Origin: an uncultured Chloroflexia bacterium
GTDB lineage: Bacteria; Chloroflexota; Dehalococcoidia; DSTF01; JACRBR01
Assembly: GCA_963843685.1 (NCBI GenBank)
Contig: CAWJLO010000005.1
Location: 790 to 64,789 of the forward strand
Direction: 5' to 3'
Length of the DNA stretch: 64,000 nucleotides
The position numbers and the translations under genes were made by a program. Below the pieces are notes generated by a model, which was not told the DNA's origin, did not search any database, and worked only from the letters and a program-made list of their open reading frames with translations. This document shows, piece after piece, positions 1-53,394 of the stretch; the stretch's first letter is position 1, and each line of letters opens with the position of its first letter.

Positions 1-1
1 G

Positions 2-118
2 GCCCAGGGCGTCAACGTCAAGCTGATCGCGGATATGCTCGGCCATGCGGACGTGTCCACCACGCTCCGGGTGATTCGGATCGGGCCGAGAGTTGTGGTG
101 GAGACGGGGGAGAATTGA
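2..118 (+). CDS. C-terminal fragment of a tyrosine recombinase/integrase-like ORF; it runs off the left window edge and its 3' end overlaps the tmRNA 3' end
   Basis: Frame 2 reads AQGVNVKLIADMLGHADVSTTLRVIRIGPRVVVETGEN*. The LGH..TT box resembles the C-terminal box of tyrosine recombinases, but the usual Y in the R-Y-x-H region is absent. The last 23 nt overlap the ssrA 3' end, as is typical of int-attL junctions. Confidence 0.35.
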   Translation, partial: AQGVNVKLIADMLGHADVSTTLRVIRIGPRVVVETGEN

Positions 119-449
119 ACTCCCCGTCCAGGTGAGCGACGCCCTGAGTCTGCTACAAGCTTATCCCTGCAGTTAGGTCTCGCCGCGTCCGTCCGCTGAG
201 GGCCCGTCCGGATACGGCCAGCCGATGGTCTTAGGCGCGCCTCATCGGCGTCGTGCGCGCAGCGCCCCGGACAAATCGTCGCTCATTCCCATTCCGCCGG
301 GGTTAGTCAGGGATGAACGTCACTGCCTAGGCAGCGAGGGCGAGTTGTGATTCGCCGTTTATTTGTTGGCCACCTGGATTAAGGAGGTCGATGGCCGCCC
401 TCCGCCTGCAACTCAGATCCGCCGATCCCTGTCGAGCCCTTTCGTCCCC
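96..449 (-). ncRNA. ssrA: tmRNA (SsrA), about 354 nt
   Basis: The minus strand starts GGGGACGAAAGGGCUCGACAGGGAUCGG (a tRNA-like 5' end) and ends GGACGGGGAGUUCAAUUCUCCCCGUCUCCACCA (T-arm plus acceptor plus CCA). The 5' GGGGACG pairs with the 3' CGUCUCC. The internal tag reading frame ends ..GESQLALAA-UAG, and smpB lies 1 kb downstream. Confidence 0.85.
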
Positions 450-551
450 ACAGGCGCGGTCAGTGTAGTATAACAGATTCAGCACTCGACATAACGATGA
501 CTAGGTGACGGCGCCGCCGGGTGGCGGGGAGGGCAGGGGAGCGGTGACGGC

Positions 552-1433
552 TCAGGGCGCCCAGGCGAGCGTACTCGCGCCGCGCTCGTCGCGCAGATGC
601 GTCGCCGTGCCGGACGCCGCGGCAATCTCCCACAGCGCCGCCGAAGAGCACGCGTAGAGCACGCTGGCGTCGCGGCCATAGGTGAGGCCCGCCACGGGCT
701 CGGTGAGCGAGGCGATGTGCGCAGGAACGCCGCCGGCCGCCGTCACGGACCACAGGTCACCGGCGGCGTCAGAGCCGCTGGCGGTGGCGTAGGCGACGGT
801 GCGGCCGTCCGGCGCGAACGCGATCGCCGTAATCACGCTGGACGGGGCCGTCGAGGCGAGATGCTGCTCGTTGCGGCCGTCCGCGCCCGCGATCGACAGC
901 TCTGTCGCGCCTTCCTGCGATGATCGCAGCAGCGCGAGCGACGAGCGGTCACGCGAGAGCGCGAAGTCGTCCACGCCGTCCGCAAGCGGAGTCCGTTCAC
1001 CCGTGCCGGCGTCGATCCGCTCCAGATCGACGCTGGAGCCGGTACGGATGACGGCCAGCACGGTCTGGTCATCGAGCCATTGTAGATGCCCGATCTCGAC
1101 GTTGGCGTTCTGCACGGACGGATGCGGGTCACTGCCATCCTCGTTCGCGATCCAGAGCTCGTCAGCGTCGCCGTTGGTGTTCGCGCCGGCCGGCTGCAAC
1201 GCGCGGACGTAAGCGATGCGTTTTCCGTCCGGGGATTCGGCGGGTTGGCGCAGCACGACGCCGTTTCCACCGACCGGGGCCGTGACCAGCGTCGCCTGCG
1301 CCGAGCCCACGTCGTAGGCGAAGATGCTGCCGCCGTCAGCGAGCAGCAGGCGTCCCTTGCCGGGCCCGCCGCAGAGAAACGCCACAGCGGCGATTCCGGC
1401 GAGAGCGAACGTGGCGGCTTTTCGTGCCTGCAT
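552..1433 (-). CDS. secreted or lipoprotein beta-propeller protein with PD40/TolB-like repeats
   Basis: The ORF begins MQARKAATFALAGIAAVAFLCGG (signal/lipobox-like) and carries repeated SPDGKRIAY and APDGRTVAY motifs. It sits immediately downstream of smpB. Confidence 0.55.
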   Translation of the reverse strand: MQARKAATFALAGIAAVAFLCGGPGKGRLLLADGGSIFAYDVGSAQATLVTAPVGGNGVVLRQPAESPDGKRIAYVRALQPAGANTNGDADELWIANEDGSDPHPSVQNANVEIGHLQWLDDQTVLAVIRTGSSVDLERIDAGTGERTPLADGVDDFALSRDRSSLALLRSSQEGATELSIAGADGRNEQHLASTAPSSVITAIAFAPDGRTVAYATASGSDAAGDLWSVTAAGGVPAHIASLTEPVAGLTYGRDASVLYACSSAALWEIAAASGTATHLRDERGASTLAWAP

Positions 1434-1446
1434 ATGCAGCGAGAGC

Positions 1447-1905
1447 CTACCGCGCGCCGTGTCGCAGGGCGCGCTGGATGTCGCGATCCGCGTCGCGCTT
1501 CGCGATGGCCTGCCGCTTGTCCCACTGCTTGCGGCCACGGGCCAAACCCAACTCGACCTTCGCTTTGCCGTCCTTCAAGTACATGCTCAGCGGCACGACG
1601 GTCAGTCCGCGCTCGGCGATGGCGCGCGTCCAGTCGCGGATCTGCGCCTTGTGGAGCAGCAGGCGCCGCGGCCGCGTCGGCTCGTGGTTCTGGTAGCTGC
1701 CGGCATCGTACGCGGCGATGTGCGCGCCGTACAGCCACATCTCTCCATCCCGGGGCTGCGCATGTGCTTCGCGAATGTTGGCGTTGCCGGCGCGAATCGA
1801 CTTGATCTCGGTGCCGGTGAGCGAGATGCCCGCCTCCACGCGCTCGAAGATCTCGTAGTCGTGGAGTGCCTTGCGGTTCGCGGCGACCTGTTTGATCTCG
1901 GCCAT
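1447..1905 (-). CDS. smpB: SsrA-binding protein SmpB
   Basis: 152 aa, MAEIKQVAANRKALHDYEIFERVEAGISLTGTEIKS..., a canonical SmpB. Confidence 0.9.
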   Translation of the reverse strand: MAEIKQVAANRKALHDYEIFERVEAGISLTGTEIKSIRAGNANIREAHAQPRDGEMWLYGAHIAAYDAGSYQNHEPTRPRRLLLHKAQIRDWTRAIAERGLTVVPLSMYLKDGKAKVELGLARGRKQWDKRQAIAKRDADRDIQRALRHGAR

Positions 1906-1919
1906 GCGGCGGGTGCGGC

Positions 1920-3260
1920 CTAGCCGCCGGTGCGCGTGGGCGTCGCGTTCTCGTCGGGCGTCGTCGTCTCCGCCGGGGTCGCGTCCTGCGGCTGCGGCGT
2001 CAGCGCCTCCGCCGGCGTCGTGTCGGTGCCTTCCAGCACGTCGATCGCCTTGAAGAGCTGGACGTCGCGGTTACCGTCGATATCGGCGTCACTCGGCGTC
2101 ACCGCGATGTCCGGCCGGATGCCCACGCCGTCGATCTGCGTGCCGTTGGGCGTCAGCCACTTCGCGATGCTGATGTAGAGCTGTCCGCCGTCCTTCAGGT
2201 CGTTCGAAACGTTCACCGTGCCCTTGCCGAACGACTTCTCGCCGACGATCGTCGCGCGGCCGTTGTCGTGCAGCGCCGCCGAAAGCACCTCGGAGCCGCT
2301 GGCGCTGAAGCGGTTGAGGATGATGACCACCGGAAGCTTCGTGGCGATGCCGCCGCTGTGGGCGCGAAACTCCTGTTTGCTCCCGTCGCGCTCCTGTTCG
2401 GTGAGGATCAGCTTGTCGGCGTCGAGAAAGTCGTTGGCGACGTCAGCCGTGGTGCGGAGCAGGCCGCCGGGGTTGTTGCGCAGGTCCAGGATCACCCCCT
2501 TCTTGCCGCTGTCGAGGATGTCCTGCAACGCCGTCTGCATCTCGCCTTCGGTCTGCTCCGTGAACTCGCGGATGTGGATGTAGCCGATGTCCGTGATCGC
2601 GTTTCCGGCGCCGTCCTTCAGCGTGCCCCCGGGGGGCACCGTGGTGACGCTCGCCACCTTGATTTCGTCACGCTCGATCTCGATCGTCTGCTCGGTCCCG
2701 TCGTCGTGCTTGACCTTGAGCGTGACCTTCGTGCCCTTGGGGCCGCGGATCTTGAGGACGGCCTTCTCCTGCGTCCAGCCGGCCGTCGACTCGCCATCCA
2801 CCTCTTCGATGATGTCACCGGCGCGGATCCCGGCGCGCTGCGCCGGCGTGTCGTCGATCGGCGACGTGATCACGATCTGGCCATTCTGCTCGGCCACGGT
2901 GGCGCCGATGCCTTCGAACGTCCCGCTCGGGCCGACGCTGGTGTTCACGGTGTCCGGGTCGACATAAAACGTGCCGCTGTCCGGGAACGTCTGCAGCATG
3001 CCCGTGATAGCGGCCTCGTACAGCGTCTGCTGGTCGACGAGGGAGGGGTCGACGTACTTCTGCTGGAGAAGCTGGTAGATCTGGTTCAGCTCGTCGAAGT
3101 TGAGGTTCGCCGCGGTCTCGGTGCCGTTATTCGAGGTCTGGGCCGCCGCGCCGGACGAACTGCTGTTGTCCCCGCGCGAGATGTAGCCGACGGCGAAGGC
3201 GAGGATGAGAATTGATGCGCCGAGCAGCCCCAGCACCGACCACCGCGCGGCTTTCAACAT
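1920..3260 (-). CDS. ctpA: carboxy-terminal processing peptidase (S41 family) with PDZ domain and N-terminal membrane anchor
   Basis: 446 aa with a PDZ region followed by the S41 core (GYIHIREFTEQTEGEM...LRNNPGG). An RBS AAGGAG lies upstream. Confidence 0.85.
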   Translation of the reverse strand: MLKAARWSVLGLLGASILILAFAVGYISRGDNSSSSGAAAQTSNNGTETAANLNFDELNQIYQLLQQKYVDPSLVDQQTLYEAAITGMLQTFPDSGTFYVDPDTVNTSVGPSGTFEGIGATVAEQNGQIVITSPIDDTPAQRAGIRAGDIIEEVDGESTAGWTQEKAVLKIRGPKGTKVTLKVKHDDGTEQTIEIERDEIKVASVTTVPPGGTLKDGAGNAITDIGYIHIREFTEQTEGEMQTALQDILDSGKKGVILDLRNNPGGLLRTTADVANDFLDADKLILTEQERDGSKQEFRAHSGGIATKLPVVIILNRFSASGSEVLSAALHDNGRATIVGEKSFGKGTVNVSNDLKDGGQLYISIAKWLTPNGTQIDGVGIRPDIAVTPSDADIDGNRDVQLFKAIDVLEGTDTTPAEALTPQPQDATPAETTTPDENATPTRTGG

Positions 3261-3375
3261 TCGGCCCTGACTCCTTGTGCGAGCCGGACGAGGGCGGGGG
3301 CGCCGACGCCTCGGTCAATCGAGATCGGACGGCAGTCTAACACTCGTACGATCGCGCCAACAATCGAAGATGCGC

Positions 3376-4194
3376 CTACGCGACGTCGCGTCCACGGGGG
3401 TTGCGCGCCGCCTTCTGGTCGTACAGCCGGCGGTCCGCGATCTGCAGCAGCTCACCCGGCGTGCGCGAGTCGTCCGGGCAGACGGCGACGCCGATCGACA
3501 GCCCGAGCTTCACACTCTCCTCACCGGGACTCAATTGAGCGGCCTGGCGCACCGCCGTGGAGAGCTTCTCCGCGGTCGAGCGCCCCTCGTCGATGCCCGT
3601 GTTCGGCAGGATGACGACGAACTCGTCGCCGCCGTAGCGGGCGGCGATGTCGCTGCCGCGGATCTGGCGCGAGATCACCTGGCCGACGAGGCTCAGGAAC
3701 TTGTCGCCGATCAGGTGGCCGTACGTGTCGTTGATGTCCTTGAAGTTGTTCATGTCCATGAGCAGCACCGTGAGCGGCTGGCCGTAGCGCAGCGAGCGCT
3801 CGACCTCGTGCGAGAGCTGCTCGTAGAAGTAGCGGTGGTTGTAGAGGCCGGTGAGGCCGTCGCGGTACGCCATCGTGCGGAGACGCTGGCTCAACTCCTC
3901 GAGGTGCGCTGAGTACGCGCGCTCGAGGTCGACGTGCAGGCGGCGGGACCTCGCTGACATGAAGATGCCGTAGGCGCCGCACGCTACGAGGCCGAACACC
4001 TCGAGCGCGCTCAGGTTCCACCTCGACATAATGTCTGGCCCGGCGAAGATCAACGCTGTCGTCCCGGCGAACAAGAGCGCACCGACCGCGCCGATGAGGT
4101 GGTCGGTTGGCCGGCGCGGCCGGCGCGCCGACGGCTCGGGGCCGATCCCGGTCAGGATGCTCTGGTGAGCCTGCATCGTTGCTGGCGAGTCCAA
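3376..4194 (-). CDS. membrane-anchored diguanylate cyclase (GGDEF domain)
   Basis: Two or three N-terminal TM segments are followed by DGLTGLYNHRYF...RYGGDEFVVILP (GGDEF with RxxD). It is preceded by a roughly 250-nt 5' leader containing a TTCAAC-16-TATGTA promoter-like site. Confidence 0.8.
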   Translation of the reverse strand: MDSPATMQAHQSILTGIGPEPSARRPRRPTDHLIGAVGALLFAGTTALIFAGPDIMSRWNLSALEVFGLVACGAYGIFMSARSRRLHVDLERAYSAHLEELSQRLRTMAYRDGLTGLYNHRYFYEQLSHEVERSLRYGQPLTVLLMDMNNFKDINDTYGHLIGDKFLSLVGQVISRQIRGSDIAARYGGDEFVVILPNTGIDEGRSTAEKLSTAVRQAAQLSPGEESVKLGLSIGVAVCPDDSRTPGELLQIADRRLYDQKAARNPRGRDVA

Positions 4195-4545
4195 GCCCGT
4201 ACGACCCTCGAATCTGGCTTTGCGCGGATCCGCCCCCTGGATCGGTCGCTCTCCACCGGCCGGGAACCGCAGGCCCGGGCTCGATGCGCGTCGATTCCGT
4301 TCGGGGCGTCCTTCTCCTACCAGAGGAGTTATCGGTACCCCTTAAGTCCTCTTGAGACTGATGCGACAGCACGTGCTGAGGAACTCGTCTGTACGCGGCT
4401 CCGTCCAGCCTGGGGGCCGTAGCGGGATCGAATACGGGCCACGTCGTTCCGTGCCCGAGCTCGGTAACCCTACATAACATCTATAGTGCGAAGTTGAAGT
4501 TCCGCGGTCCACTGCCGAGACAGGAGAGGCCGGGGGGGCCAGCCT

Positions 4546-5478
4546 CTACTTCTGTGGCGTCTCGGGAATCCGGGTCGATGATCCGCGCAGGATGTCGATC
4601 ACGGCTGCCAGCGGGTCGCCTTCTTGCTCGTCGTCGTTCAGGCGCCGTTCCGCGCCGACGATGTCGAGTAGCGTGGTGCTGGGAGTCTGAGCCGGCGCCG
4701 GGCTGGACGGCAGTGCGACGGACGTCTCGGCCGGCGGCTTGAGGCCGACGCTGTTGCGCCAGTGCGAGATCATCGCGGCCGTCGAGTCCCGCAGGTCGCC
4801 GGCGCTGACGGCGTCGTCGTCGGTCGCGCGCGTGGCCTGGCGCATGAGCGACAGCTCCGGCAGCCTCGGCTTGGGCACATCGATGCGCGGTGCCCGCAGC
4901 TCGGGCGCGGAGATCTGCGGCATAGTCAGCGTAATCGCCGGGAGCTGGCGTCGCAGCGCCCGCGTCGCCACCAGCGCGACGGCGGCGCAGGCGATTCCGA
5001 CCGCGAGGAGTGGATTCACGCCCAGCCACGCGGTCCCGCCGAGAAACGCCAGGCAGGCGGCGCCGCCGGCGTACCACGGCCAGTGGTCCCGCGGGATTCG
5101 GACACTTGGCAGCGTGATGGCCGGCATTGAAATCGAGACGCGGCGCGTGCCCGTGCCCTCGTCCGGTCCGGGGCCGGATCCGGCTGCCGCTTTGGGCGCC
5201 TTCCGCTTCTTCTGCCGCTTCTGCTTGGAGGACACTGGCTGAATCATGCCCTTGCGGATGAGCACGTCGTCCCGGAAGGCGTCGTACTGCTGCCGCAGTC
5301 GCGACGTCCCGAGCACGCCGTATGCCTCGTTGAGCTCGTCCAGCATGACCCGGCCGCCGGGATTCGTCTGCGCCAGCGCCTGGTACTTGCGCGCCAGATG
5401 CCAGTAGGCCTGGTCAACCATCATGCCGTCGGCGCTGGGGGTGAGCCCCAGGATCTCGTAGTAGTCGCGGTCACTCAT
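4546..5478 (-). CDS. J-domain (DnaJ-like) membrane protein with a degenerate HPD motif
   Basis: The N-terminus reads DYYEILGLTPSADGMMVDQAYWHLARKYQ... (J-domain helix II/III) but has no HPD tripeptide. A lysine-rich linker, one TM segment and a Pro/Ser-rich tail follow. Confidence 0.55.
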   Translation of the reverse strand: MSDRDYYEILGLTPSADGMMVDQAYWHLARKYQALAQTNPGGRVMLDELNEAYGVLGTSRLRQQYDAFRDDVLIRKGMIQPVSSKQKRQKKRKAPKAAAGSGPGPDEGTGTRRVSISMPAITLPSVRIPRDHWPWYAGGAACLAFLGGTAWLGVNPLLAVGIACAAVALVATRALRRQLPAITLTMPQISAPELRAPRIDVPKPRLPELSLMRQATRATDDDAVSAGDLRDSTAAMISHWRNSVGLKPPAETSVALPSSPAPAQTPSTTLLDIVGAERRLNDDEQEGDPLAAVIDILRGSSTRIPETPQK

Positions 5479-5817
5479 TGCAATTCTCTTTCGAGGCGGG
5501 GCTCACTCTACCGAACGCCTCTTGAGTCGGTGACGTTTCCAGATTCGATTGACGCCGGCCACCGTCGGCCGCCCGTTTGTAAAGCGCGCGGCGACGTCAG
5601 GACGCGGAAGGACGGCGTGATCGTCTGTGCGTCAGCAACTCCGAATCCGGCCTTGTGGGAGGGCCGGCAACCCCTGAATAGTCCCCCTGGTTCCCCTATC
5701 CGAATCATCGGCACGCGGGTGCGCGTTCTGGTGTTGCCCGTGTACGTTATGTGAACTTGACCGGACCTGTCACGCCCCTCCCGCGCGTCGCGTTCTCGTT
5801 ATTGGAGGTAACGGGCT

Positions 5818-6030
5818 GTGACATCTTCCTCAACCGACGCCGTCGTCGACTACCGCGGTCGCATCATGTTCTATTGCGACGTGTGCCGGGCCCCGATCAC
5901 CAAGGACGACTTCTTCAACCTCGGCCTTCGCTTCCCGGATGCCGACGAGAGCAAGGACGACTACTGCGAGTCTGAGCTCGTCGACGGCGTGACACACCCG
6001 GCCTGCCTGCGGGCCTCCCGCGCCGGCTGA
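5818..6030 (+). CDS. small Cys-containing hypothetical protein (70 aa)
   Basis: A GTG start is preceded by GGAGGT 9 nt upstream. The CDVC...C..THPAC spacing suggests a zinc ribbon. The amino-acid composition is not GC-frame-artifact-like. Confidence 0.3.
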   Translation: MTSSSTDAVVDYRGRIMFYCDVCRAPITKDDFFNLGLRFPDADESKDDYCESELVDGVTHPACLRASRAG

Positions 6031-6079
6031 GCGGCGGCCCGTCGTCCGGCCAGTGCCCCATCGCGAATACCCTTGAGCA

Positions 6080-6108
6080 TTGACGCGCCCCCGTCTTCGC
6101 GATAGCGT
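6080..6108 (+). promoter_or_regulatory. sigma-70-like promoter (TTGACG-17-TAGCGT) driving the leader of the antiporter gene
   Basis: The -35 hexamer is at 6080-6085 and the -10 at 6103-6108 with a 17-nt spacer; the predicted transcription start is about 6115. Confidence 0.3.
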
Positions 6109-6116
6109 GCCAGCGA

Positions 6117-6232
6117 ACCCACAAAGGGGAGTAACTGGCCCGCCCCTCAAGTCCGGCGGGCAGTCCGGATCGCCAGACCCGGCCTCAACAGCCCGGTCCG
6201 GACAACTCCGCAACGCTGCGCGGAGGCGGTGA
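6117..6232 (+). ncRNA. candidate yybP-ykoY (Mn2+) riboswitch aptamer in the 5' leader of a cation antiporter gene
   Basis: ACAAAGGGGAGUAACUGG at 6121-6138 matches the conserved AAAGGGGAGUAG L1 motif. A GC-rich paired region follows, and the UGAGACC 3' strand overlaps the downstream terminator stem. The regulated gene is a metal-cation transporter, the canonical context for this riboswitch. Confidence 0.45.
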
Positions 6233-6270
6233 GACCTTTGATGACTGTCACGTCATCAAAGGTCTTTTTT
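6233..6270 (+). terminator. intrinsic terminator or attenuator: 13-bp perfect stem (GACCTTTGATGAC/GTCATCAAAGGTC), 6-nt loop, T6 tract
   Basis: The inverted repeat is seen directly in the sequence. It lies 23 bp upstream of the antiporter start, so it is an attenuator of that gene rather than the terminator of an upstream gene. Confidence 0.7.
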
Positions 6271-6292
6271 CGTAGCGGGAGGCCTCGCCGAG

Positions 6293-7501
6293 TTGGAGCT
6301 TCGTCGCTGGCAATGGCCGATCGCCATGGCGCTTCTCGCCTGGCCCGCCGCAAGCCTGCGTATGGGTCTCTGGGGCGCCGGGCAGCCGGTCGAGACGCTG
6401 TGCTACGGCCTCGCCATCGTGTCGGCTGCGTTCCTCCTCACCTGGTGCGCCGAGGCCGCCGAACGCGACATCCCTCGCACGTTAGCGCTGGCCGGGCTCG
6501 CGCTGGTCGCGGTGCTGCCGGAGTACGCCGTCGACATGCTCTTCGCGTGGAAGGCGGGCCACGACCCGTCGTACGCGGCGTTCGCCACCGCGAACATGAC
6601 GGGCGGCAACCGGCTGCTCGTCGGCCTGGGCTGGACGATGGTGGTCGGCATCTTCTGGATCCGCACGCGCAAGAGTCTCCTGGAACTGGCCGCGCTCCAC
6701 CGCACGGAGGTCGGGCTGCTCGGCGTCGCGACCGTCTATTCGTTCGTCATCCCGCTGCGCGGCGGCCTCACGCTCTTCGACGCGGCATTTCTCGTCGGCC
6801 TGTTCTGCGTCTACGTGTATCTCGCGTCCCGCGGCGAGATGGAGGAGGAGTCGTCACTCGTCGGGCCCGCCGAGACGATCGCGAATCTCCCAATGAGACA
6901 GCGGCGGATGCTGGTGCTCGCGATGTTCCTCTACGCTGGTGCGTCCATCCTCGTGGCGGCCGAGCCGTTCGCCGACGGCCTGATCAAGACGGGTGTGCAG
7001 TTCGGCATCGACGAGTTCCAGCTCGTGCAGTGGGTCGCCCCTCTGGCGTCCGAGTTCCCGGAGTTCCTCGTCGCCGGGCTGTTGGCGTGGAGGATGCGTG
7101 CCGACGCGGCGCTCGGCGCCCTCGTCTCGTCGAAAGTGAACCAGTGGACGCTGCTCATCGGCTGCCTGCCCATCGCCTACGCGATCTCGAGCCACAGCAT
7201 CAATCCGCTGCCGACCGACACGCGCCAGACCGAGGAGGTGTTGCTGACGGCGGCGCAGAGCCTCCTCGCCGTGATCATGCTGTTGAACCTGCGCATGTCG
7301 CTGTGGGAAGCGGGCATCCTCGCTGTGCTGTTCCTGGCACAGTTCCTGACACCGCACTCGATCGTCCCGCGCAACGTCTTCTCCGCCATGTACCTGGCGT
7401 TTGCGGCCGTCTTCATCGTGCGGGCATACGTCGAGATGCGGCCGTTTCTCCCGCAACGCGTCTTCCGTGGTCCGGCGCCCGGCCTCGATCGCCCGGCCTA
7501 G
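6293..7501 (+). CDS. CaCA-family cation (Ca2+/Na+ or Ca2+/H+) antiporter, 10-12 TM segments
   Basis: Two alpha-repeat-like motifs are present (GLALVAVLPEYAVDMLFAWKAG and VAPLASEFPEFLVAGLLAW). A TTG start is preceded by GGGAGG. Confidence 0.55.
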   Translation: MELRRWQWPIAMALLAWPAASLRMGLWGAGQPVETLCYGLAIVSAAFLLTWCAEAAERDIPRTLALAGLALVAVLPEYAVDMLFAWKAGHDPSYAAFATANMTGGNRLLVGLGWTMVVGIFWIRTRKSLLELAALHRTEVGLLGVATVYSFVIPLRGGLTLFDAAFLVGLFCVYVYLASRGEMEEESSLVGPAETIANLPMRQRRMLVLAMFLYAGASILVAAEPFADGLIKTGVQFGIDEFQLVQWVAPLASEFPEFLVAGLLAWRMRADAALGALVSSKVNQWTLLIGCLPIAYAISSHSINPLPTDTRQTEEVLLTAAQSLLAVIMLLNLRMSLWEAGILAVLFLAQFLTPHSIVPRNVFSAMYLAFAAVFIVRAYVEMRPFLPQRVFRGPAPGLDRPA

Positions 7502-7534
7502 TGCCAGCGTACGGGTTCGGCGTACGGTGACAGG

Positions 7535-7975
7535 ATGGACGCACGGGACGAGTCTGCCGCGATCTTCGCCAGCGCCCGCGAGCGCCACACGGCCGGCGAC
7601 GTCGCCGGCGGAGTGGATCTCGCCCGGCGCGCGCTCGAGCTCGACCCGGAGAACGTGGAGGCGATCGAGCACCTCGCGACTGTCCTCGTAACGAGGCGCG
7701 CTCGCTACGACGAGGGCCTGGCCCTGATCGAGCGGGCCGTCGCACTGCGCCCTGAAGACGCGGGCCTCTGGTATGCGCTGGGCTGGTGCAGCGAGTTCGC
7801 GGCGCACGAGCAGCAGCGCCGCCCTGCTCCGCGATCGAGCCGAACCCCGCGCGATCTGTATGAGCGCGCCGCGCAAGCGTTCCGGACCTGTCTCTCGCTC
7901 AAGCCCGAAGGCAAGCTCGCGGACGACGCCGAGGACCTGCTCGACCACGTAGAGAACGAACTCTCGCGCCTCTGA
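7535..7975 (+). CDS. TPR-repeat protein
   Basis: 146 aa with TPR-like helices (ALELDPENVEAIEHLATVL..., AVALRPEDAGLWYALGW). Confidence 0.55.
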   Translation: MDARDESAAIFASARERHTAGDVAGGVDLARRALELDPENVEAIEHLATVLVTRRARYDEGLALIERAVALRPEDAGLWYALGWCSEFAAHEQQRRPAPRSSRTPRDLYERAAQAFRTCLSLKPEGKLADDAEDLLDHVENELSRL

Positions 7976-8054
7976 GCCCTCCCCTGCCCCATCCCTGGCG
8001 CCTAGAATGGCAGCGTCGGCCGCAACAACCAGATTCGGAACGAGGACAGGCGCG

Positions 8055-9401
8055 ATGGACATTGAGCAACGTTATGTCGAGCTACATCCTTCGTCGCGTC
8101 GGCTCCACGAGCGCGCCCTGCGCCTCTTCCCCAACGGCGTCACCCACGACATGCGGCACGCCACCCCCTTCCCGCTCTACGTCGCAAGCGCCGCCGGCAG
8201 CCGAAAGGTCGACGTCGACGGCAACCAGATCGTCGACTTCGTCATGGGCCACGGCGCCCTGCTCCTCGGCCACCAGCACCCTGCGGTGACGGAGGCGGTG
8301 CAGGCGCAAGCGGCCCGCGGCACGCACTACGGCGCCTCCCACGAGCTGGAGATCCGCTGGGGCGAGCTGGTGCAGCGGATCGTGCCCTCCGCGGAGCACC
8401 TGCGTTTCACGTCGTCCGGCACCGAGGCGACGATGATGGCCGCTCGGCTGGCGCGCGCCTTCACCGGCCGGGAGAAGATCATCCGTCTGCGCGAGCACTT
8501 CCACGGATGGAACGACAGCGTCAGCGGCCAACCTCAACTCGAGGAGACCGTGCCTTCGTCGCCAGGGCTGACGCGCGGCGCGCTCGAGGGCTCGATCGTG
8601 CTGCCGCAGGGTGACGTCGAGGCCCTTGAGCGCACCCTCCGCGAGGACGGCGGCGTGATCGCGGCGATGATCTTCGAAACGACAGGCGCGCACTGGGGCA
8701 CGGAGCCGATGGACCTCGAATACGTGCGGCGTGCGCGCGAGCTGACGGAGCAGCACGGTGTGCTCTTGATCTTCGATGAGGTGATCACGGGATTCCGTGT
8801 CGCGCCGGGCGGCGCGCAGGAGGCGTACGGCATCACGCCTGACCTGACGACGCTGGCGAAGATCCTCGCCGGCGGACTGCCCGGCGGGTGCGTCGCCGGA
8901 CGCGCTGACGTCATCGACCAGATCGCCATCCGTGATGACGGCACGCGCGACCGCGTCTCGCACCAGGGCACGTTCAACGCCAACCCCCTGTCGTCGGCCG
9001 CCGGCGGCGCGTGTCTCGCACTGATCGAAACCGGCGAGCACCAGCGGCGCGCCAACGAGACGGCCGCGAAGCTCGCCCGCGCGATGAACGCCGTCTTCCA
9101 GGAGGAATCGATCGCCGGCAGCGTCTACGGTCAAGCGTCGATGCTGCACGTCGCGCTCGGCTTCGACCAGCAGCCGCCGGACGGCTACTCGTGGGGCTGG
9201 CGCCGGCTCCCCTGCTCGCCGCCGCGCGTCGCGCCCGCCGCGGCGAAGGCATTGCGGCTCGGCATGATCAACGAGGGTGTGGACTTGATGTCCGGCGGCA
9301 TGATGGTGTCCTCCGCGCACGGCGATGCCGATGTCGACGTGACCGTGCAGGCGTTCCGGCGCACGTTGCGCGCGATGAAAGACGAAGGGCTCGCCGGCTG
9401 A
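8055..9401 (+). CDS. class III aminotransferase, glutamate-1-semialdehyde 2,1-aminomutase-like
   Basis: GSA-aminomutase family motifs are present (DVDGNQIVDFVMGHGALLLGHQHPAV, a Gly-rich PLP region, FDEVITGFR). An upstream in-frame ATG at 8007 would give an Ala-rich extension. Confidence 0.8.
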   Translation: MDIEQRYVELHPSSRRLHERALRLFPNGVTHDMRHATPFPLYVASAAGSRKVDVDGNQIVDFVMGHGALLLGHQHPAVTEAVQAQAARGTHYGASHELEIRWGELVQRIVPSAEHLRFTSSGTEATMMAARLARAFTGREKIIRLREHFHGWNDSVSGQPQLEETVPSSPGLTRGALEGSIVLPQGDVEALERTLREDGGVIAAMIFETTGAHWGTEPMDLEYVRRARELTEQHGVLLIFDEVITGFRVAPGGAQEAYGITPDLTTLAKILAGGLPGGCVAGRADVIDQIAIRDDGTRDRVSHQGTFNANPLSSAAGGACLALIETGEHQRRANETAAKLARAMNAVFQEESIAGSVYGQASMLHVALGFDQQPPDGYSWGWRRLPCSPPRVAPAAAKALRLGMINEGVDLMSGGMMVSSAHGDADVDVTVQAFRRTLRAMKDEGLAG

Positions 9402-9638
9402 CTACTTGTCCGGGAACGTGACCAGCGAGGTCGTGCTCTCGATGCCCGGTATCGTCCGGATCTTGTCGCTGAGGATCGGCGGCACGTCGCTGAGCGACTC
9501 GACCTCGATCTCGATCACGATGTCGTAGGGGCCCATCACCTCGTGCAATTCCTTCACACCGGGGATGGCACGGACCGAGTTCACCACTTCCCTTGTGTTC
9601 CCCGGCTGCGTGACCACCAACACGTACGCCTTGATCAT
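9402..9638 (-). CDS. small Lrp/AsnC-type ligand-binding (RAM) domain protein
   Basis: MIKAYVLVVTQPGNTREVVNSVRAIPGVKELHEVMGPYDIVIEIEVESLSDV. An RBS AGGAGG lies 7 nt upstream of the ATG. Confidence 0.6.
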   Translation of the reverse strand: MIKAYVLVVTQPGNTREVVNSVRAIPGVKELHEVMGPYDIVIEIEVESLSDVPPILSDKIRTIPGIESTTSLVTFPDK

Positions 9639-9876
9639 GCCCTGCCTCCTGCGATTCTGATCAGGTGCGTCAGCGGTTGATCGAGAGGAACGGAGCACCG
9701 ATACTCAAGGAAAACCGCGGGACGAGCGCCTACTTGGTACAGGTTCCGCGAAGCGGCGTCAATCGTGTCTGCGCCCGGCGATGCGTGAACGCCCTAGTTA
9801 GGCGGGCCCTCGCTCGTGAGATACAATGTGTTCTTGGAGCCCGCTGCGCGTCTGCGCCGGGCGACCGCGCCACCGG

Positions 9877-10365
9877 ATGCACGGCGCGGCTGAGGCAAGC
9901 GTGGTCGAAGAGATCTTCCAGACCGACCCCATCAGCTCTCTCGGACTCCCCTTACCCGTATCGATCGGTCGCGACGCCACTGTTGGCGCCGCCCTCGCCG
10001 CCGTGCAGAAGCAGGGCCAGGGTTACGTGCTGATCGTCGACGACGGCAAGCCCGTCGGCATCATGAGCGAGCGCGAAGTCCTCATGCGTGTGGTTGCGCG
10101 CGACGTTAAGTACGACGAGAGCGTCGAGAAATACATGTCGCACGACCCTGAGACGCTGACGCAGAAGGATCAGATCGCCCAGGCGATCCAGATGATGAAC
10201 GAAGGCGGAGAGCGGAACATCCCGATCGTCAACGCGTCCGGCAGAGCCGTCGCCGTGCTCCGGACCGTCGACATCATTCACTTCCTGGCGGAGGCGTTCC
10301 CCGCGCAGGTGATGAACCTGCCGCCGAGGCCTCACCAACTCATCCCGGAACCGGAGGGGGCGTAG
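9877..10365 (+). CDS. CBS-domain pair protein
   Basis: Two CBS motifs are present; a TACAAT -10 sits at about 9822. An alternative GTG start is at 9901. The stop abuts the korA start. Confidence 0.6.
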   Translation: MHGAAEASVVEEIFQTDPISSLGLPLPVSIGRDATVGAALAAVQKQGQGYVLIVDDGKPVGIMSEREVLMRVVARDVKYDESVEKYMSHDPETLTQKDQIAQAIQMMNEGGERNIPIVNASGRAVAVLRTVDIIHFLAEAFPAQVMNLPPRPHQLIPEPEGA

Positions 10366-12227
10366 TGACAACGCTGACGAAACAGTCGAAGCAGCCGGAT
10401 CAGGGCGACGTACAGGAGCTGGAGCGCGTGACGATCCGCTTCGCCGGGGACTCCGGCGACGGCATGCAGCTTGCGGGCACGCAGTTCACCAAGACGTCGG
10501 CCGTGGCGGGCAACGACATCAGCACCTTCCCGGACATCCCGGCCGAGATCCGGGCGCCGCAGGGGTCGCTGCCGGGCGTCAGTGGTTTCCAGGTCAGCTT
10601 CTCCAGCCAGGACATCTACACGCCGGGCGACGCCCCCGACGTGCTCGTCGCCATGAACCCGGCGGCGCTGAAGACGAACCTCGCCGACCTGCCCCGCGGC
10701 GGCATCCTCGTCGTAAACGAGGATGAGTTCAACGAGACCAACCTCCGGAAGGCTGCCTACACGACGAACCCGCTCGAAGACGGCAGCCTCCGCTCGTACC
10801 GGCTCTTCCGGGTGCCGGTCTCGACGCTGAACGGCCGCGCGCTGCAGGAGAGCGGACTCACAGCCGTGCAGGTCGACCGCTGCAAGAACATGTTCGCGCT
10901 CGGCCTCATGTTCTGGATGTACAGCCGCTCGCTCGACACGACGCTGCGCTGGATCGACGAGAAGTTCGGCAAGAACAAGGCCGTCGCTGACGGCAACAAG
11001 ACATCGCTGAAGGCCGGCTATCACTTCGGCGAGACGACGGAGATGTTCGCCGCGCACTACCACGTGCCGAAGGCGAAGCTGAAGCCGGGCCTCTATCGCA
11101 ACATCACCGGCAACGAAGCGACCGCGCTCGGCTTCATCACGGCGTCGAAGCTGTCCGGCCGGCCGCTCTTCTACGGAAGCTACCCCATCACGCCGGCGAG
11201 CGACGTGCTGCACGAGCTGGCCCGCTTCAAGCGCTTCGGCGTGCGCACCTTCCAGGCTGAGGACGAGATCGCGGCGATCGGCGCGGCGATCGGCGCCTCG
11301 TTTGGCGGCGCGCTCGGACTCACGGGCACGAGCGGCCCCGGCGTGGCGCTCAAGAGCGAGGCAATTGGCCTCGCCGTGATGGTCGAGCTGCCGCTGGTGA
11401 TCATGGACGTACAGCGCGCCGGCCCAAGCACCGGCATGCCGACCAAGACGGAGCAGGGAGACCTGCTGCAGGCGATGTTCGGCCGTAACGGCGAGTCGCC
11501 CGTGGCGATCGTCGCGCCGGCCACCGCGTCGGACTGCTACCACATGGCCGTCGAGGCGTTCCGCATCGCCGTGAAGTACCGGACGCCCGTGATCTTCCTC
11601 TCGGACGGTTACCTCGGCATGGGTTCGGAGCCGTGGCTCGTGCCCGACGCGGACGCGCTGCCGCCCATCGACCCCAACTTCGCAGCCGACGCCGCGACCT
11701 TCATGCCCTACGCGCGTGATCCGAAGACCCTCGCGCGCCCATGGGCGATCCCCGGCACGCCTGACCTGGAGCACCGCATCGGCGGCCTCGAAAAGGCCGA
11801 CATCACCGGCAACGTCAGCTACGACCCCGCGAACCACGACAAGATGGTGCGGCTCCGCGCCGAGAAGATCGAACGCATCGTCCAGGACGTGCCCGACGTA
11901 GAGGTCACGGGCGACGATTCGGGAGGCCTGCTCGTACTTGGCTGGGGCAGCACGTACGGCGTCATCACCACGGCCGTGCAACGCGCGCGGGCGCAGGGGA
12001 AGCGCGTATCGGCGGCGCACCTGCGCTACCTGAACCCGCTTCCGGGCAACCTGGGCGAGGTCCTGCGTCGATACGACCAGGTGCTGATGCCGGAGATCAA
12101 CCTCGGACAGATGCGCATGCTGGTGCGCGCGAAGTACCTGGTGGACGTGGTCGGCCTCAACAAGGTCTCGGGCCGCCCGTTCACCATCGCCGAGGTCGAG
12201 AACAAGATCGCCGAGCTGCTCGGCTAG
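10365..12227 (+). CDS. korA: 2-oxoacid:ferredoxin oxidoreductase alpha subunit (long KorA type)
   Basis: 620 aa beginning MTTLTKQSKQPDQGDVQELERVTIRFAGDSGDGMQLAGTQF, with the pyruvate-flavodoxin/ferredoxin oxidoreductase domain. Confidence 0.85.
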   Translation: MTTLTKQSKQPDQGDVQELERVTIRFAGDSGDGMQLAGTQFTKTSAVAGNDISTFPDIPAEIRAPQGSLPGVSGFQVSFSSQDIYTPGDAPDVLVAMNPAALKTNLADLPRGGILVVNEDEFNETNLRKAAYTTNPLEDGSLRSYRLFRVPVSTLNGRALQESGLTAVQVDRCKNMFALGLMFWMYSRSLDTTLRWIDEKFGKNKAVADGNKTSLKAGYHFGETTEMFAAHYHVPKAKLKPGLYRNITGNEATALGFITASKLSGRPLFYGSYPITPASDVLHELARFKRFGVRTFQAEDEIAAIGAAIGASFGGALGLTGTSGPGVALKSEAIGLAVMVELPLVIMDVQRAGPSTGMPTKTEQGDLLQAMFGRNGESPVAIVAPATASDCYHMAVEAFRIAVKYRTPVIFLSDGYLGMGSEPWLVPDADALPPIDPNFAADAATFMPYARDPKTLARPWAIPGTPDLEHRIGGLEKADITGNVSYDPANHDKMVRLRAEKIERIVQDVPDVEVTGDDSGGLLVLGWGSTYGVITTAVQRARAQGKRVSAAHLRYLNPLPGNLGEVLRRYDQVLMPEINLGQMRMLVRAKYLVDVVGLNKVSGRPFTIAEVENKIAELLG

Positions 12228-53127: not shown

Positions 53128-53394
53128 GGTCGTGCACCCGCTGTCGATCGGGCCCTTCGGCTTAACGGCGCTAGCCAGCTCCGGCCCGGTAACCCTACGG
53201 CACCCGAAGCAAACTACTTACCGCTGCTTCCTTCCGGACCTGACGGGGTTCATAGCGCTTCGCCGCGTAGGACCAGGCCCTCAACGCCGCTCGGCGCAGC
53301 CAGTTCCCAGGTACACCAACCTCGAGCGGGGATTCAGCCCCGCTATAGCGGCTTGCGGGTACAGGGCACCGCTGGCTCCCCGCCTAGCACGACC
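53128..53394 (-). ncRNA. ffs: signal recognition particle RNA, long Bacillus-type (Alu domain plus S domain), about 267 nt
   Basis: The minus strand reads GGUCGUGCUAGGCGGGGAGCCAGCGGUGCCCUGUACCCGCAAGCCGCUAUAGCGGGGCUGAAUCCCCGCUCGAGGUUGGUGUAC... then GUCAGGUCCGGAAGGAAGCAGC (domain IV) and ends ...GAUCGACAGCGGGUGCACGACC. The 5' and 3' ends pair (GGUCGUGC/GCACGACC), and there is a near-collinear match to the B. subtilis scRNA Alu and S domains. Confidence 0.85.

What the first reader, a model, noticed from the sequence alone, without database searches (positions are those of the whole stretch)
2..449. Integrase 3' fragment overlapping the tmRNA 3' end, likely the attL junction of an element integrated in ssrA
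The window begins inside a plus-strand ORF whose C-terminus has a tyrosine-recombinase-like LGHxxxxTT box. Its last 23 nt are the reverse complement of the tmRNA acceptor/T-arm 3' end. ssrA is a classic integration target, and integrases that use it end inside the duplicated 3' segment. The element body would lie to the left, outside the window. The catalytic Tyr region looks atypical (RVIRI instead of RY.H), so the integrase may be degenerate, or this may be a remnant.
Basis: partly seen in the sequence, partly recalled or inferred. Interest (0 to 1): 0.55.

Follow-up and report, generated by a model that had tools for sequence, protein, structure and literature searches.

The report
Dead integrase stub beside tmRNA gene
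The window opens on the last piece of a mobile-element integrase gene next to the tmRNA gene, but a roughly 0.2 kb deletion has removed its catalytic tyrosine, so it is an ordinary decayed relic of an element that once inserted there.

Summary
tmRNA (ssrA) lies at 96-449 on the minus strand. A plus-strand ORF running in from the window edge ends at TGA 116-118, 23 nt inside the tmRNA 3' end, and carries an LGHADVSTT box.

Window 1-93 is an insertion: a sister strain (L001, 98.4% identical over 11.8 kb) matches the window only from base 94 onward. It has an enoyl-CoA-hydratase-like ORF beyond the tmRNA instead.

Codons 1-24 (window 2-73) belong to a large tyrosine-integrase family (PF14659+PF00589). 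In Dehalococcoidia this family sits next to ssrA in about 10 kb, satellite-like elements bounded by a 25-27 nt repeat of the tmRNA 3' end.

Homology stops one residue before the catalytic Tyr. Window 74-95 is the tmRNA-proximal half of the terminator hairpin that intact relatives carry. So about 215 nt (136 alignment columns against short-spacer relatives) are missing: the Tyr, the integrase tail, the arm-type repeats and half the terminator.

The overlap with tmRNA is therefore run-on of a broken frame, not a native integrase feature.

The element body and the second repeat lie outside the window and could not be retrieved. This is an ordinary finding of low interest.

The parts
2..73 (+). 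Remnant of a tyrosine-integrase gene. These 24 codons (AQGVNVKLIADMLGHADVSTTLRV) correspond to residues 328-351 of a 375-aa family member and include the Box II LGH histidine. The fragment is cut by the window edge on the left and by a deletion on the right.
   Evidence: Translation. tblastn to the integrases next to tmRNA in L067, L024, L054, L029, L074, L005, L078, L016 and L066, where every alignment ends at residue 23-24. 20/25 identity to P0054, E 8e-12. 56/72 nt and 19/24 aa identical to L112. Only integrase-family hit in the window.
73..74 (.). Deletion junction (within about 1 nt). Integrase homology ends here and homology to the terminator hairpin begins.
   Evidence: Alignments A1 and A3. 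Relative to L112, the 215 nt at 10157-10371 are absent, starting exactly at the TAC Tyr codon.
74..95 (.). tmRNA-proximal half of the element-borne terminator hairpin (arm ttcggatcgggcc, 75-87) plus an 8-nt spacer. The distal arm and loop are missing.
   Evidence: 17/18 match to L017 and an exact 13-mer in L026 at the same position relative to the tmRNA end. Complete hairpins in L112, L026 and L017 with the same arm sequence, and analogous hairpins in L054, L024 and L067. The L112 hairpin folds at -28.7 kcal/mol, z -4.9. The window transcript has no stable fold, z -0.17. The segment is absent from sister strain L001.
74..118 (+). Run-on tail of the broken ORF (IRIGPRVVVETGEN*). It is read from hairpin and tmRNA-antisense DNA and is not integrase sequence.
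   Evidence: No homology to any integrase C-terminus. 118 of the 120 best homologues have Y immediately after TTLR[VI]. The VETGEN* ending appears in this frame at every tmRNA 3' end surveyed, whatever lies upstream.
96..120 (.). The 25 nt of the tmRNA 3' end (TGGTGGAGACGGGGGAGAATTGAAC) that form the direct repeat (att core) of this element family in relatives.
   Evidence: Exact 25-nt repeat in L112 at 641-665 and 10394-10418. Repeats of 25-27 nt in the pairs L024/L036, L029/L071, L066/L062, L072/L010 and L063/L044. Only one copy in the window, even allowing 3 mismatches.
96..449 (-). Complete tmRNA (ssrA) gene with encoded CCA and tag GESQLALAA.
   Evidence: ARAGORN. Rfam RF00023, 124 bits, full model. 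100% identical to the sister strain L001.
1447..1905 (-). smpB, a host-side context gene. It marks the conserved synteny SmpB, CtpA-type protease, GGDEF, DnaJ, Na/Ca exchanger that is shared with L001 and L112.
   Evidence: ORF list. Pfam labels on the matching genes of L001 and L112.

Best explanation
A small integrative element of a Dehalococcoidia family once inserted into the 3' end of ssrA. Intact relatives of this family are about 10 kb, look like phage satellites and use a tyrosine integrase.

Inferred from relatives: the integrase recombined the element's attP with the tmRNA 3' end. attP carries a 25-27 nt copy of that 3' end, followed by its own terminator hairpin and arm-type repeats. 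After insertion the last 25 nt of the tmRNA and its terminator were supplied by the element. The integrase gene then pointed toward the tmRNA.

Shown here: an internal deletion of about 0.2 kb joined integrase codon 24 to the loop of the terminator hairpin. That is about 215 nt measured against L112, or 136 alignment columns against short-spacer relatives. The deletion removed the catalytic tyrosine, the last ~25 codons, the arm-type repeats on this side and half the terminator. The broken frame now runs over the remaining hairpin arm and the antisense of the tmRNA acceptor/T-arm to a chance TGA in the T-loop.

Consequence (inferred): this copy encodes no active recombinase and has lost one attachment arm, so the element or its stub is locked in place. 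tmRNA itself is intact.

Not known: whether a full element body or only a stub lies to the left.
For: - **tmRNA and ORF coordinates:**
- **Insertion versus empty site:** L001 is 98.35% identical over window 94-11904 and unrelated before 94. An enoyl-CoA-hydratase-like ORF lies beyond its tmRNA.
- **Family membership of codons 1-24:**. The family carries PF14659+PF00589 and has 1453 homologues at E<=1e-10. L112 Int scores PF00589 1.1e-28.
- **Loss of the Tyr:** homology ends at residue 351 of 375. The next residue is Y in 118 of 120 homologues and in all nine ssrA-adjacent relatives.
- **Half hairpin:**
- **Size of the gap:**
- **Intact model with the same synteny:** L112 has a 9.7-kb element between 25-nt repeats. 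Its Int stops 162 nt before the tmRNA. TTGGCGTCA occurs 3 times, only near the two junctions, against 0.13 expected.
- **Decay is common at this site:** of the seven relatives with enough flank to judge, four (L005, L016, L054, L074) retain only part of the integrase. P0068 is frameshifted and also reads through the tmRNA antisense.
Against: - Only 24 codons of the integrase are visible.
- The closest relative is 78% identical in DNA, so the ancestral sequence and the exact deletion size are inferred, not observed.
- The sequence left of the window was not obtained, so no second repeat, element genes or composition shift could be checked.
- Read-level support for the 73/74 junction cannot be examined. 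The window may begin at or near a contig end, where assemblies are weakest.
- The L001 flank shares an unexplained 8-mer (GGGTGATT) with window 68-75.
Confidence: 0.8

Rival explanations
1. Assembly artefact. The first ~73 nt were joined wrongly to the tmRNA flank at a contig end, and the real genome has either an intact integrase and attL or no integrase here.
For: Several representative genomes have contigs that begin or end exactly at the tmRNA 3' end (L030, L033, L102, L096, L077), so this locus does break assemblies. The window's own leftward sequence and its integrase are absent from every collection searched.
Against: De Bruijn mis-joins need a shared k-mer, and there is no repeat at 73/74, only 1-2 nt of possible microhomology. 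Both sides of the junction come from the same kind of element in the correct order and orientation, which a random chimera would not produce. Comparable natural decay is seen in independent genomes.
Confidence: 0.08
2. Integration-split or integration-remodelled integrase. The att crossover lies inside the int gene (as in SSV-type archaeal integrases), so the excised circular form would restore a Tyr-bearing C-terminus from the other end of the element.
For: The ORF does cross the att core, and the C-terminus differs from the family consensus.
Against: Homology breaks at 73/74, which is 22 nt outside the 25-nt core (96-120). Bases 74-95 are element DNA that stays contiguous with the core in attP (positions in L112) and are absent from the empty site. 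Excision therefore cannot change codons 25-31. Intact relatives keep the whole int gene, Tyr included, on one side of the core.
Confidence: 0.03
3. A functional integrase with an unusual C-terminus that natively ends inside the tmRNA repeat.
For: Native overlap of a recombinase ORF with attL/ssrA exists in this class of bacteria for DsiB-type serine recombinases (PMC3146451).
Against: No tyrosine occurs after the LGH box in this frame. Reading the other two forward frames of window 60-118 directly from the sequence gives no YxH-type motif either. Pfam profile positions 163-172, which hold the nucleophile, are unmatched. The family's intact members stop 52-1309 nt before the tmRNA.
Confidence: 0.02

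Closest known systems
Genomic islands and prophages integrated by tyrosine integrases into the 3' end of tRNA/tmRNA genes (as catalogued in Islander, PMC4383910)
   Same: Foreign DNA abuts the 3' end of ssrA. A tyrosine-integrase gene sits next to the junction. The element restores the target gene's 3' end. In relatives a displaced 25-27 nt 3' fragment marks the far end.
   Different: This copy is decayed: the catalytic Tyr and the adjacent attachment arm are deleted. The far end cannot be seen from this window.
Dehalococcoides ssrA genomic islands with the DsiB serine recombinase (McMurdie et al. 2011, PMC3146451)
   Same: Same bacterial class and same target, the ssrA 3' end in the T-loop region. 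Islands and repeat fragments accumulate there (L113 and L037). A recombinase ORF overlaps attL/ssrA.
   Different: Those islands use a CcrB-like large serine recombinase whose ORF natively reads into attL, with a 20-bp repeat. Here the enzyme family is a tyrosine integrase, the repeat is 25-27 nt, and the overlap is a by-product of a deletion.
Lambda-type (heterobivalent) attP organisation with arm-type binding repeats. This comparison rests on established knowledge of lambda Int; it was not tested biochemically here.
   Same: Intact relatives have short direct repeats close to the att junctions. TTGGCGTCA occurs twice next to the tmRNA-side core and once about 110 nt inside the far-end repeat, and GGCGTCG-type motifs lie next to the far-end repeat. 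The integrase has an N-terminal SAM-like domain plus a catalytic domain.
   Different: Binding to these repeats is inferred only. In the window the repeats on this arm are gone.
Phage satellites of the PICI / capsid-forming PICI kind
   Same: The intact relatives are about 9.7 kb. They encode an integrase, HTH_17 (AlpA/Xis-like) proteins and an AAA_25 or DUF927/primase-polymerase replication module. They also carry a few head-assembly genes: head maturation protease and small terminase in L112, major capsid in L111.
   Different: No helper phage, induction or packaging has been shown. None of these genes is visible in the window itself.

Membership tests
Tyrosine recombinase / phage integrase (PF00589) | Sequence homology to the catalytic domain | tested here: met
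   The fragment matches profile positions 143-162 of 172 (E 0.016, below the gathering score). It is 20/25 identical to the family member P0054 (E 8e-12). It is 78% identical to L112 Int residues 329-351, and L112 Int itself scores PF00589 1.1e-28.
Tyrosine recombinase / phage integrase (PF00589) | Box II histidine (LGH) | tested here: met
   LGHADVSTT at codons 13-21, aligned to the invariant LGH of relatives.
Tyrosine recombinase / phage integrase (PF00589) | Catalytic tyrosine nucleophile about 10 residues after the Box II His | tested here: not met
   Position 25 is Ile. No Tyr occurs anywhere in the remaining 14 codons. 118 of 120 homologues have Y at this position. The Tyr codon is the first base triplet of the missing segment.
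Tyrosine recombinase / phage integrase (PF00589) | Upstream catalytic residues (Arg-Lys-His-Arg) and the N-terminal DNA-binding domains | not testable with these tools
   They would lie left of window base 1. The leftward sequence could not be retrieved.
Island integrated in a tmRNA gene (Islander-type definition, PMC4383910) | Foreign DNA begins at the 3' end of the target gene relative to an unoccupied site | tested here: met
   L001 is collinear with the window from base 94 (2 nt beyond the encoded CCA at 96-98) and unrelated before it.
Island integrated in a tmRNA gene (Islander-type definition, PMC4383910) | Displaced 3' fragment of the target gene as a direct repeat at the far end | not testable with these tools
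   No second copy within the window, even allowing 3 mismatches. The far end would lie left of the window. The feature is present in the relatives L112, L113 and L111 and in five genome pairs.
Dehalococcoides ssrA-GI (DsiB type, PMC3146451) | Large serine recombinase (Resolvase + Recombinase domains) next to attL | tested here: not met
   The window fragment is of the tyrosine-recombinase type. Serine recombinases of that kind were found at ssrA in other loci (L087, L091) but not in this window.
Integration-split integrase gene (SSV type) | att core lies inside the int ORF, so integration separates the gene's two parts | tested here: not met
   The break in homology (73/74) lies 22 nt outside the core (96-120). 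Bases 74-95 are element DNA contiguous with the core.
Phage satellite (PICI-like) | Compact element with integrase, AlpA/Xis-type regulator, replication module and a partial set of head or packaging genes | not testable with these tools
   Seen in the relatives L112 and L111. The corresponding region of this genome is outside the window.

The most novel reading that the evidence does not exclude
The ssrA-targeting, tyrosine-integrase elements seen intact in relatives may be an undescribed family of phage satellites in Dehalococcoidia. They are about 10 kb, carry head-protease, small-terminase or capsid genes, and bring their own tmRNA 3' end, terminator and arm-type repeats. They would be distinct from the known DsiB serine-recombinase islands, and the window would hold a decayed member.

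A more speculative variant: the Tyr-less but otherwise DNA-binding integrase might still occupy the ssrA site and hinder new integrations.
Probability: 0.3. Interest if true: 0.35.

Novelty: new member of a known kind. Interest (0 to 1): 0.15.

Why it matters
It matters little on its own. It is a pseudogenised integrase marking a past insertion at a classic hotspot.

It is still useful in three ways:
- It is a strain-level marker, since the sister strain L001 lacks the insertion.
- It is a caution for annotation. The 38-codon ORF that overlaps tmRNA is not a gene product, and the tmRNA gene here has lost its element-supplied terminator.
- It points to a family of small tyrosine-integrase elements at ssrA in uncultured Dehalococcoidia. 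The literature found here describes only serine-recombinase ssrA islands in this class.

Tried and rejected
**Attempts to extend the window leftward all failed.**
- Look-ups of the window's own proteins found the SmpB and GGDEF products only on the sister-strain contig (L001 = L109) and a 1.9-kb JGI contig. A 50-200 kb contig that also carries them was never returned.
- The window's propeller and protease proteins are not on record.
- An exact 30-mer across the junction gave 0 hits in genome contigs.
- A back-translated pattern for the integrase fragment gave 0 hits in viral contigs and in metagenome contigs.
- A 28-mer of the hairpin arm plus the tmRNA end gave 0 hits in metagenome contigs.
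Padded to 40 aa, it found no candidates.
- None of the 120 best family members carries the window's tail.

**IMG/VR** holds only distant relatives of the integrase, at most 34% identical over a near full-length match, so it gave no model element.

**Readings considered and rejected:**
- A chance ORF.
- A native overlap of the integrase with att.
- An integration-split int gene.
- A frameshift that hides the Tyr. The other two forward frames of window 60-118, read directly from the sequence, contain no YxH-type motif.

**Left unexplained.** The 8-mer GGGTGATT is shared by window 68-75 and the L001 flank. I estimate a few percent probability of this by chance, but it fits no simple deletion or excision scenario.

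**Technical note.** ARAGORN missed about a dozen tmRNA genes in relatives that a profile search found. Its negatives were therefore not used to call partial copies.

Full report
**What is in the sequence.** ARAGORN and Rfam both place a complete tmRNA gene at window 96-449 on the minus strand. Its tag is GESQLALAA and it scores 124 bits over the whole RF00023 model. smpB follows at 1447-1905 on the same strand. Frame 2 of the plus strand is open from base 2 to a TGA at 116-118 and reads AQGVNVKLIADMLGHADVSTTLRVIRIGPRVVVETGEN*. Its last 23 nt (96-118) are antisense to the tmRNA 3' end.

**The left 93 bases are an insertion.** A look-up of the window's SmpB returned a 13-kb contig of a sister strain (L001, GCA_964418935.1). 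L001 is 98.35% identical to window 94-11904, and its tmRNA is 100% identical. Identity ends at base 94, 2 nt beyond the encoded CCA (96-98). Beyond that point L001 has unrelated sequence and an enoyl-CoA-hydratase-like ORF, named from reading its sequence rather than from a profile search. Foreign DNA therefore abuts the tmRNA 3' end in the window and not in its closest known relative.

**Identity of the fragment.**
- On its own the 38-aa peptide hits PF00589 only weakly (E 0.016, profile positions 143-162 of 172).
- A scan of one genome per species for the 22-nt tmRNA 3' end returned 107 stretches, almost all from Dehalococcoidia/Chloroflexota MAGs.
- Nine of the 92 loci with a complete tmRNA carry a homologous integrase within 3 kb downstream of the tmRNA, always converging on it.
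- A profile of three full-length members found 1453 homologues with PF14659+PF00589.
- The closest homologue, P0054, is 20/25 identical to the fragment (E 8e-12).
- Every alignment stops at codon 23-24 (TTLRV). The next residue is Tyr in 118 of the 120 best homologues and in all nine ssrA-adjacent relatives. This is the Box II LGH...Y motif with the nucleophile, as established for tyrosine recombinases.
- The window's tail has no Tyr in its own frame. Reading the other two forward frames of window 60-118 from the sequence shows no YxH-type motif.

**What replaced the integrase tail.**
- Window 73-90 matches the sequence immediately beside the tmRNA end in L017 at 17 of 18 positions. Window 73-85 matches L026 exactly.
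- In L017, L026 and L112 this sequence is the tmRNA-proximal arm of a strong hairpin (gccccgatccga...tcggatcggggc). L054, L024 and L067 have analogous hairpins with different stem sequences.
- The L112 hairpin folds at -28.7 kcal/mol (z -4.9) and is followed by a U-rich run. The equivalent window transcript has no better-than-random fold (z -0.17), and no terminator-like site lies downstream of the tmRNA.
- Multiple alignment shows the window lacking 136 columns present in five relatives, from the TAC Tyr codon to the hairpin loop.
- Against the closest DNA relative, L112 (56/72 nt identical over the coding part), the missing segment is L112 10157-10371, which is 215 nt.
- That segment holds the Tyr, the last ~25 codons, two TTGGCGTCA repeats and the distal hairpin arm.

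**An intact model of the ancestral state.** P0047 is 19/24 identical to the fragment. Looking it up gave L112, L113 and L114. These have the window's synteny: Int, then tmRNA, SmpB, CtpA-type protease, GGDEF, DnaJ and a Na/Ca exchanger.
- In L112 the tmRNA 3' end at 10394-10418 is repeated exactly (25 nt) at 641-665. The repeats bound a 9.7-kb element.
- The host-type terminator hairpin sits outside the distal repeat. The gccccgatccga hairpin sits inside the element next to the regenerated tmRNA, so this hairpin is element-borne.
- TTGGCGTCA occurs three times in 18.7 kb, all close to the two junctions, against 0.13 expected. Related GGCGTCG motifs flank the distal repeats of other members. 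This looks like a lambda-type attP with arm sites, which is inferred and not tested.
- Element genes include a head maturation protease, a small terminase, an AAA_25 protein and two HTH_17 proteins. The related element in L111 has a major capsid protein and a DUF927/primase-polymerase module.
- Partial 25-27 nt copies also pair with full tmRNAs in five other genomes.

**Explanation.** An element of this family integrated at ssrA by tyrosine-integrase recombination and supplied the tmRNA's last 25 nt and its terminator. This step is inferred from relatives.
- A later internal deletion of about 0.2 kb fused integrase codon 24 to the hairpin loop. This step is shown by the two-sided homology.
- The frame then runs over non-coding DNA to a chance stop in the T-loop.
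- The same VETGEN* ending appears in that frame at every tmRNA surveyed, whatever lies upstream. The overlap therefore carries no information about the integrase.
- The gene cannot encode an active recombinase, and the adjacent arm is gone. The insertion should be fixed unless it is removed by another deletion.
- Decay of these integrases at ssrA is frequent. Of the seven relatives with enough flank to judge, four (L005, L016, L054, L074) retain only part of the integrase. P0068 is a frameshifted copy that also reads through the tmRNA antisense.

**Rivals.**
- An assembly chimera cannot be excluded without reads. However, there is no shared repeat at the junction, and both flanks are element parts in the correct order and orientation.
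- A split int gene restored on excision is excluded. The break lies 22 nt outside the core, within DNA that stays attached to the core in attP.
- A native overlap of integrase with att is not a property of this family, whose ORFs stop 52-1309 nt before the tmRNA end.
- Native overlap is a property of the DsiB-type large serine recombinases of Dehalococcoides ssrA islands (PMC3146451). I found these reading straight into the tmRNA end in other loci: L087 and L091 carry Resolvase+Recombinase domains.

**Limits.** The sequence left of the window could not be recovered from any collection. The second repeat, the element genes and any composition shift therefore remain untested for this genome. The window has no second core copy and no other integrase of this family.

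**Verdict.** It is wrong about why the ORF overlaps the tmRNA. This is a decayed new member of a well-known kind of system (integration at tDNA/tmRNA genes, PMC4383910) and is of low interest.

Noticed in passing
L087 4489-5961, L091 3715-5298; also L058, L088, L055, L015, L106: Large serine recombinases (Resolvase + Recombinase +/- Zn-ribbon domains) whose ORFs read without a stop into the tmRNA 3' end (...LVETGEN*). This is the DsiB-type arrangement described for Dehalococcoides ssrA islands. In the tblastn survey 12 of 92 species-representative loci had a serine recombinase within 3 kb of the tmRNA end, against 9 with the tyrosine integrase.
   Followed up: partly
L112 641-10418 (same element in L113 and L114): Intact 9.7-kb element bounded by an exact 25-nt repeat of the tmRNA 3' end. 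It encodes Int, two HTH_17 proteins, AAA_25, a head maturation protease and a small terminase, so it looks like a phage satellite. It carries its own terminator hairpin for the regenerated tmRNA, and TTGGCGTCA repeats lie close to both att junctions.
   Followed up: partly
L111 1576-11690: A related element with a major capsid protein, DUF927 and a primase-polymerase-like gene. Here the homologous integrase sits at the far end next to the partial repeat instead of next to the tmRNA, although the att arms have the same orientation. The int module therefore occupies different positions in this family.
   Followed up: no
L113 552, 1538, 11291; L037 372, 458, 546: Three copies of the tmRNA 3' end in tandem, one full gene plus two fragments. 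In L113 an acetyltransferase gene lies between the two fragments. This points to stacked or decayed insertions at ssrA, as reported for Dehalococcoides.
   Followed up: no
P0068 (481 aa, from a 1.8-kb metagenome contig): A frameshifted member of the same integrase family whose frame runs on through the terminator region and across the whole tmRNA antisense. It is an independent example of a broken int ORF overlapping ssrA.
   Followed up: no
window 68-75 and L001 11817-11824 (flank of the empty site): The 8-mer GGGTGATT occurs at the window's deletion junction and also 3 nt from the tmRNA end in the sister strain's otherwise unrelated flank. It may be chance (a few percent) or a trace of shared history. 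No simple scenario fits.
   Followed up: partly
L030, L033, L102 (contig starts); L096, L077 (contig ends): Several representative-genome contigs begin or end exactly at the tmRNA 3' end. This suggests that population heterogeneity at this insertion hotspot regularly breaks metagenome assemblies. The window's abrupt start inside the integrase may have a similar cause.
   Followed up: no
L002, L004, L020, L026, L027, L031, L043, L047, L058, L060, L067, L083, L088, L089: ARAGORN reported no tmRNA in these loci although a profile built from the other tmRNAs finds full-length genes there. tmRNA calls from ARAGORN alone under-count in this clade.
   Followed up: yes
window 53130-53392 (-): A bacterial large SRP RNA (RF01854, 198 bits). 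This is an ordinary housekeeping RNA and fits a Chloroflexota origin.
   Followed up: no
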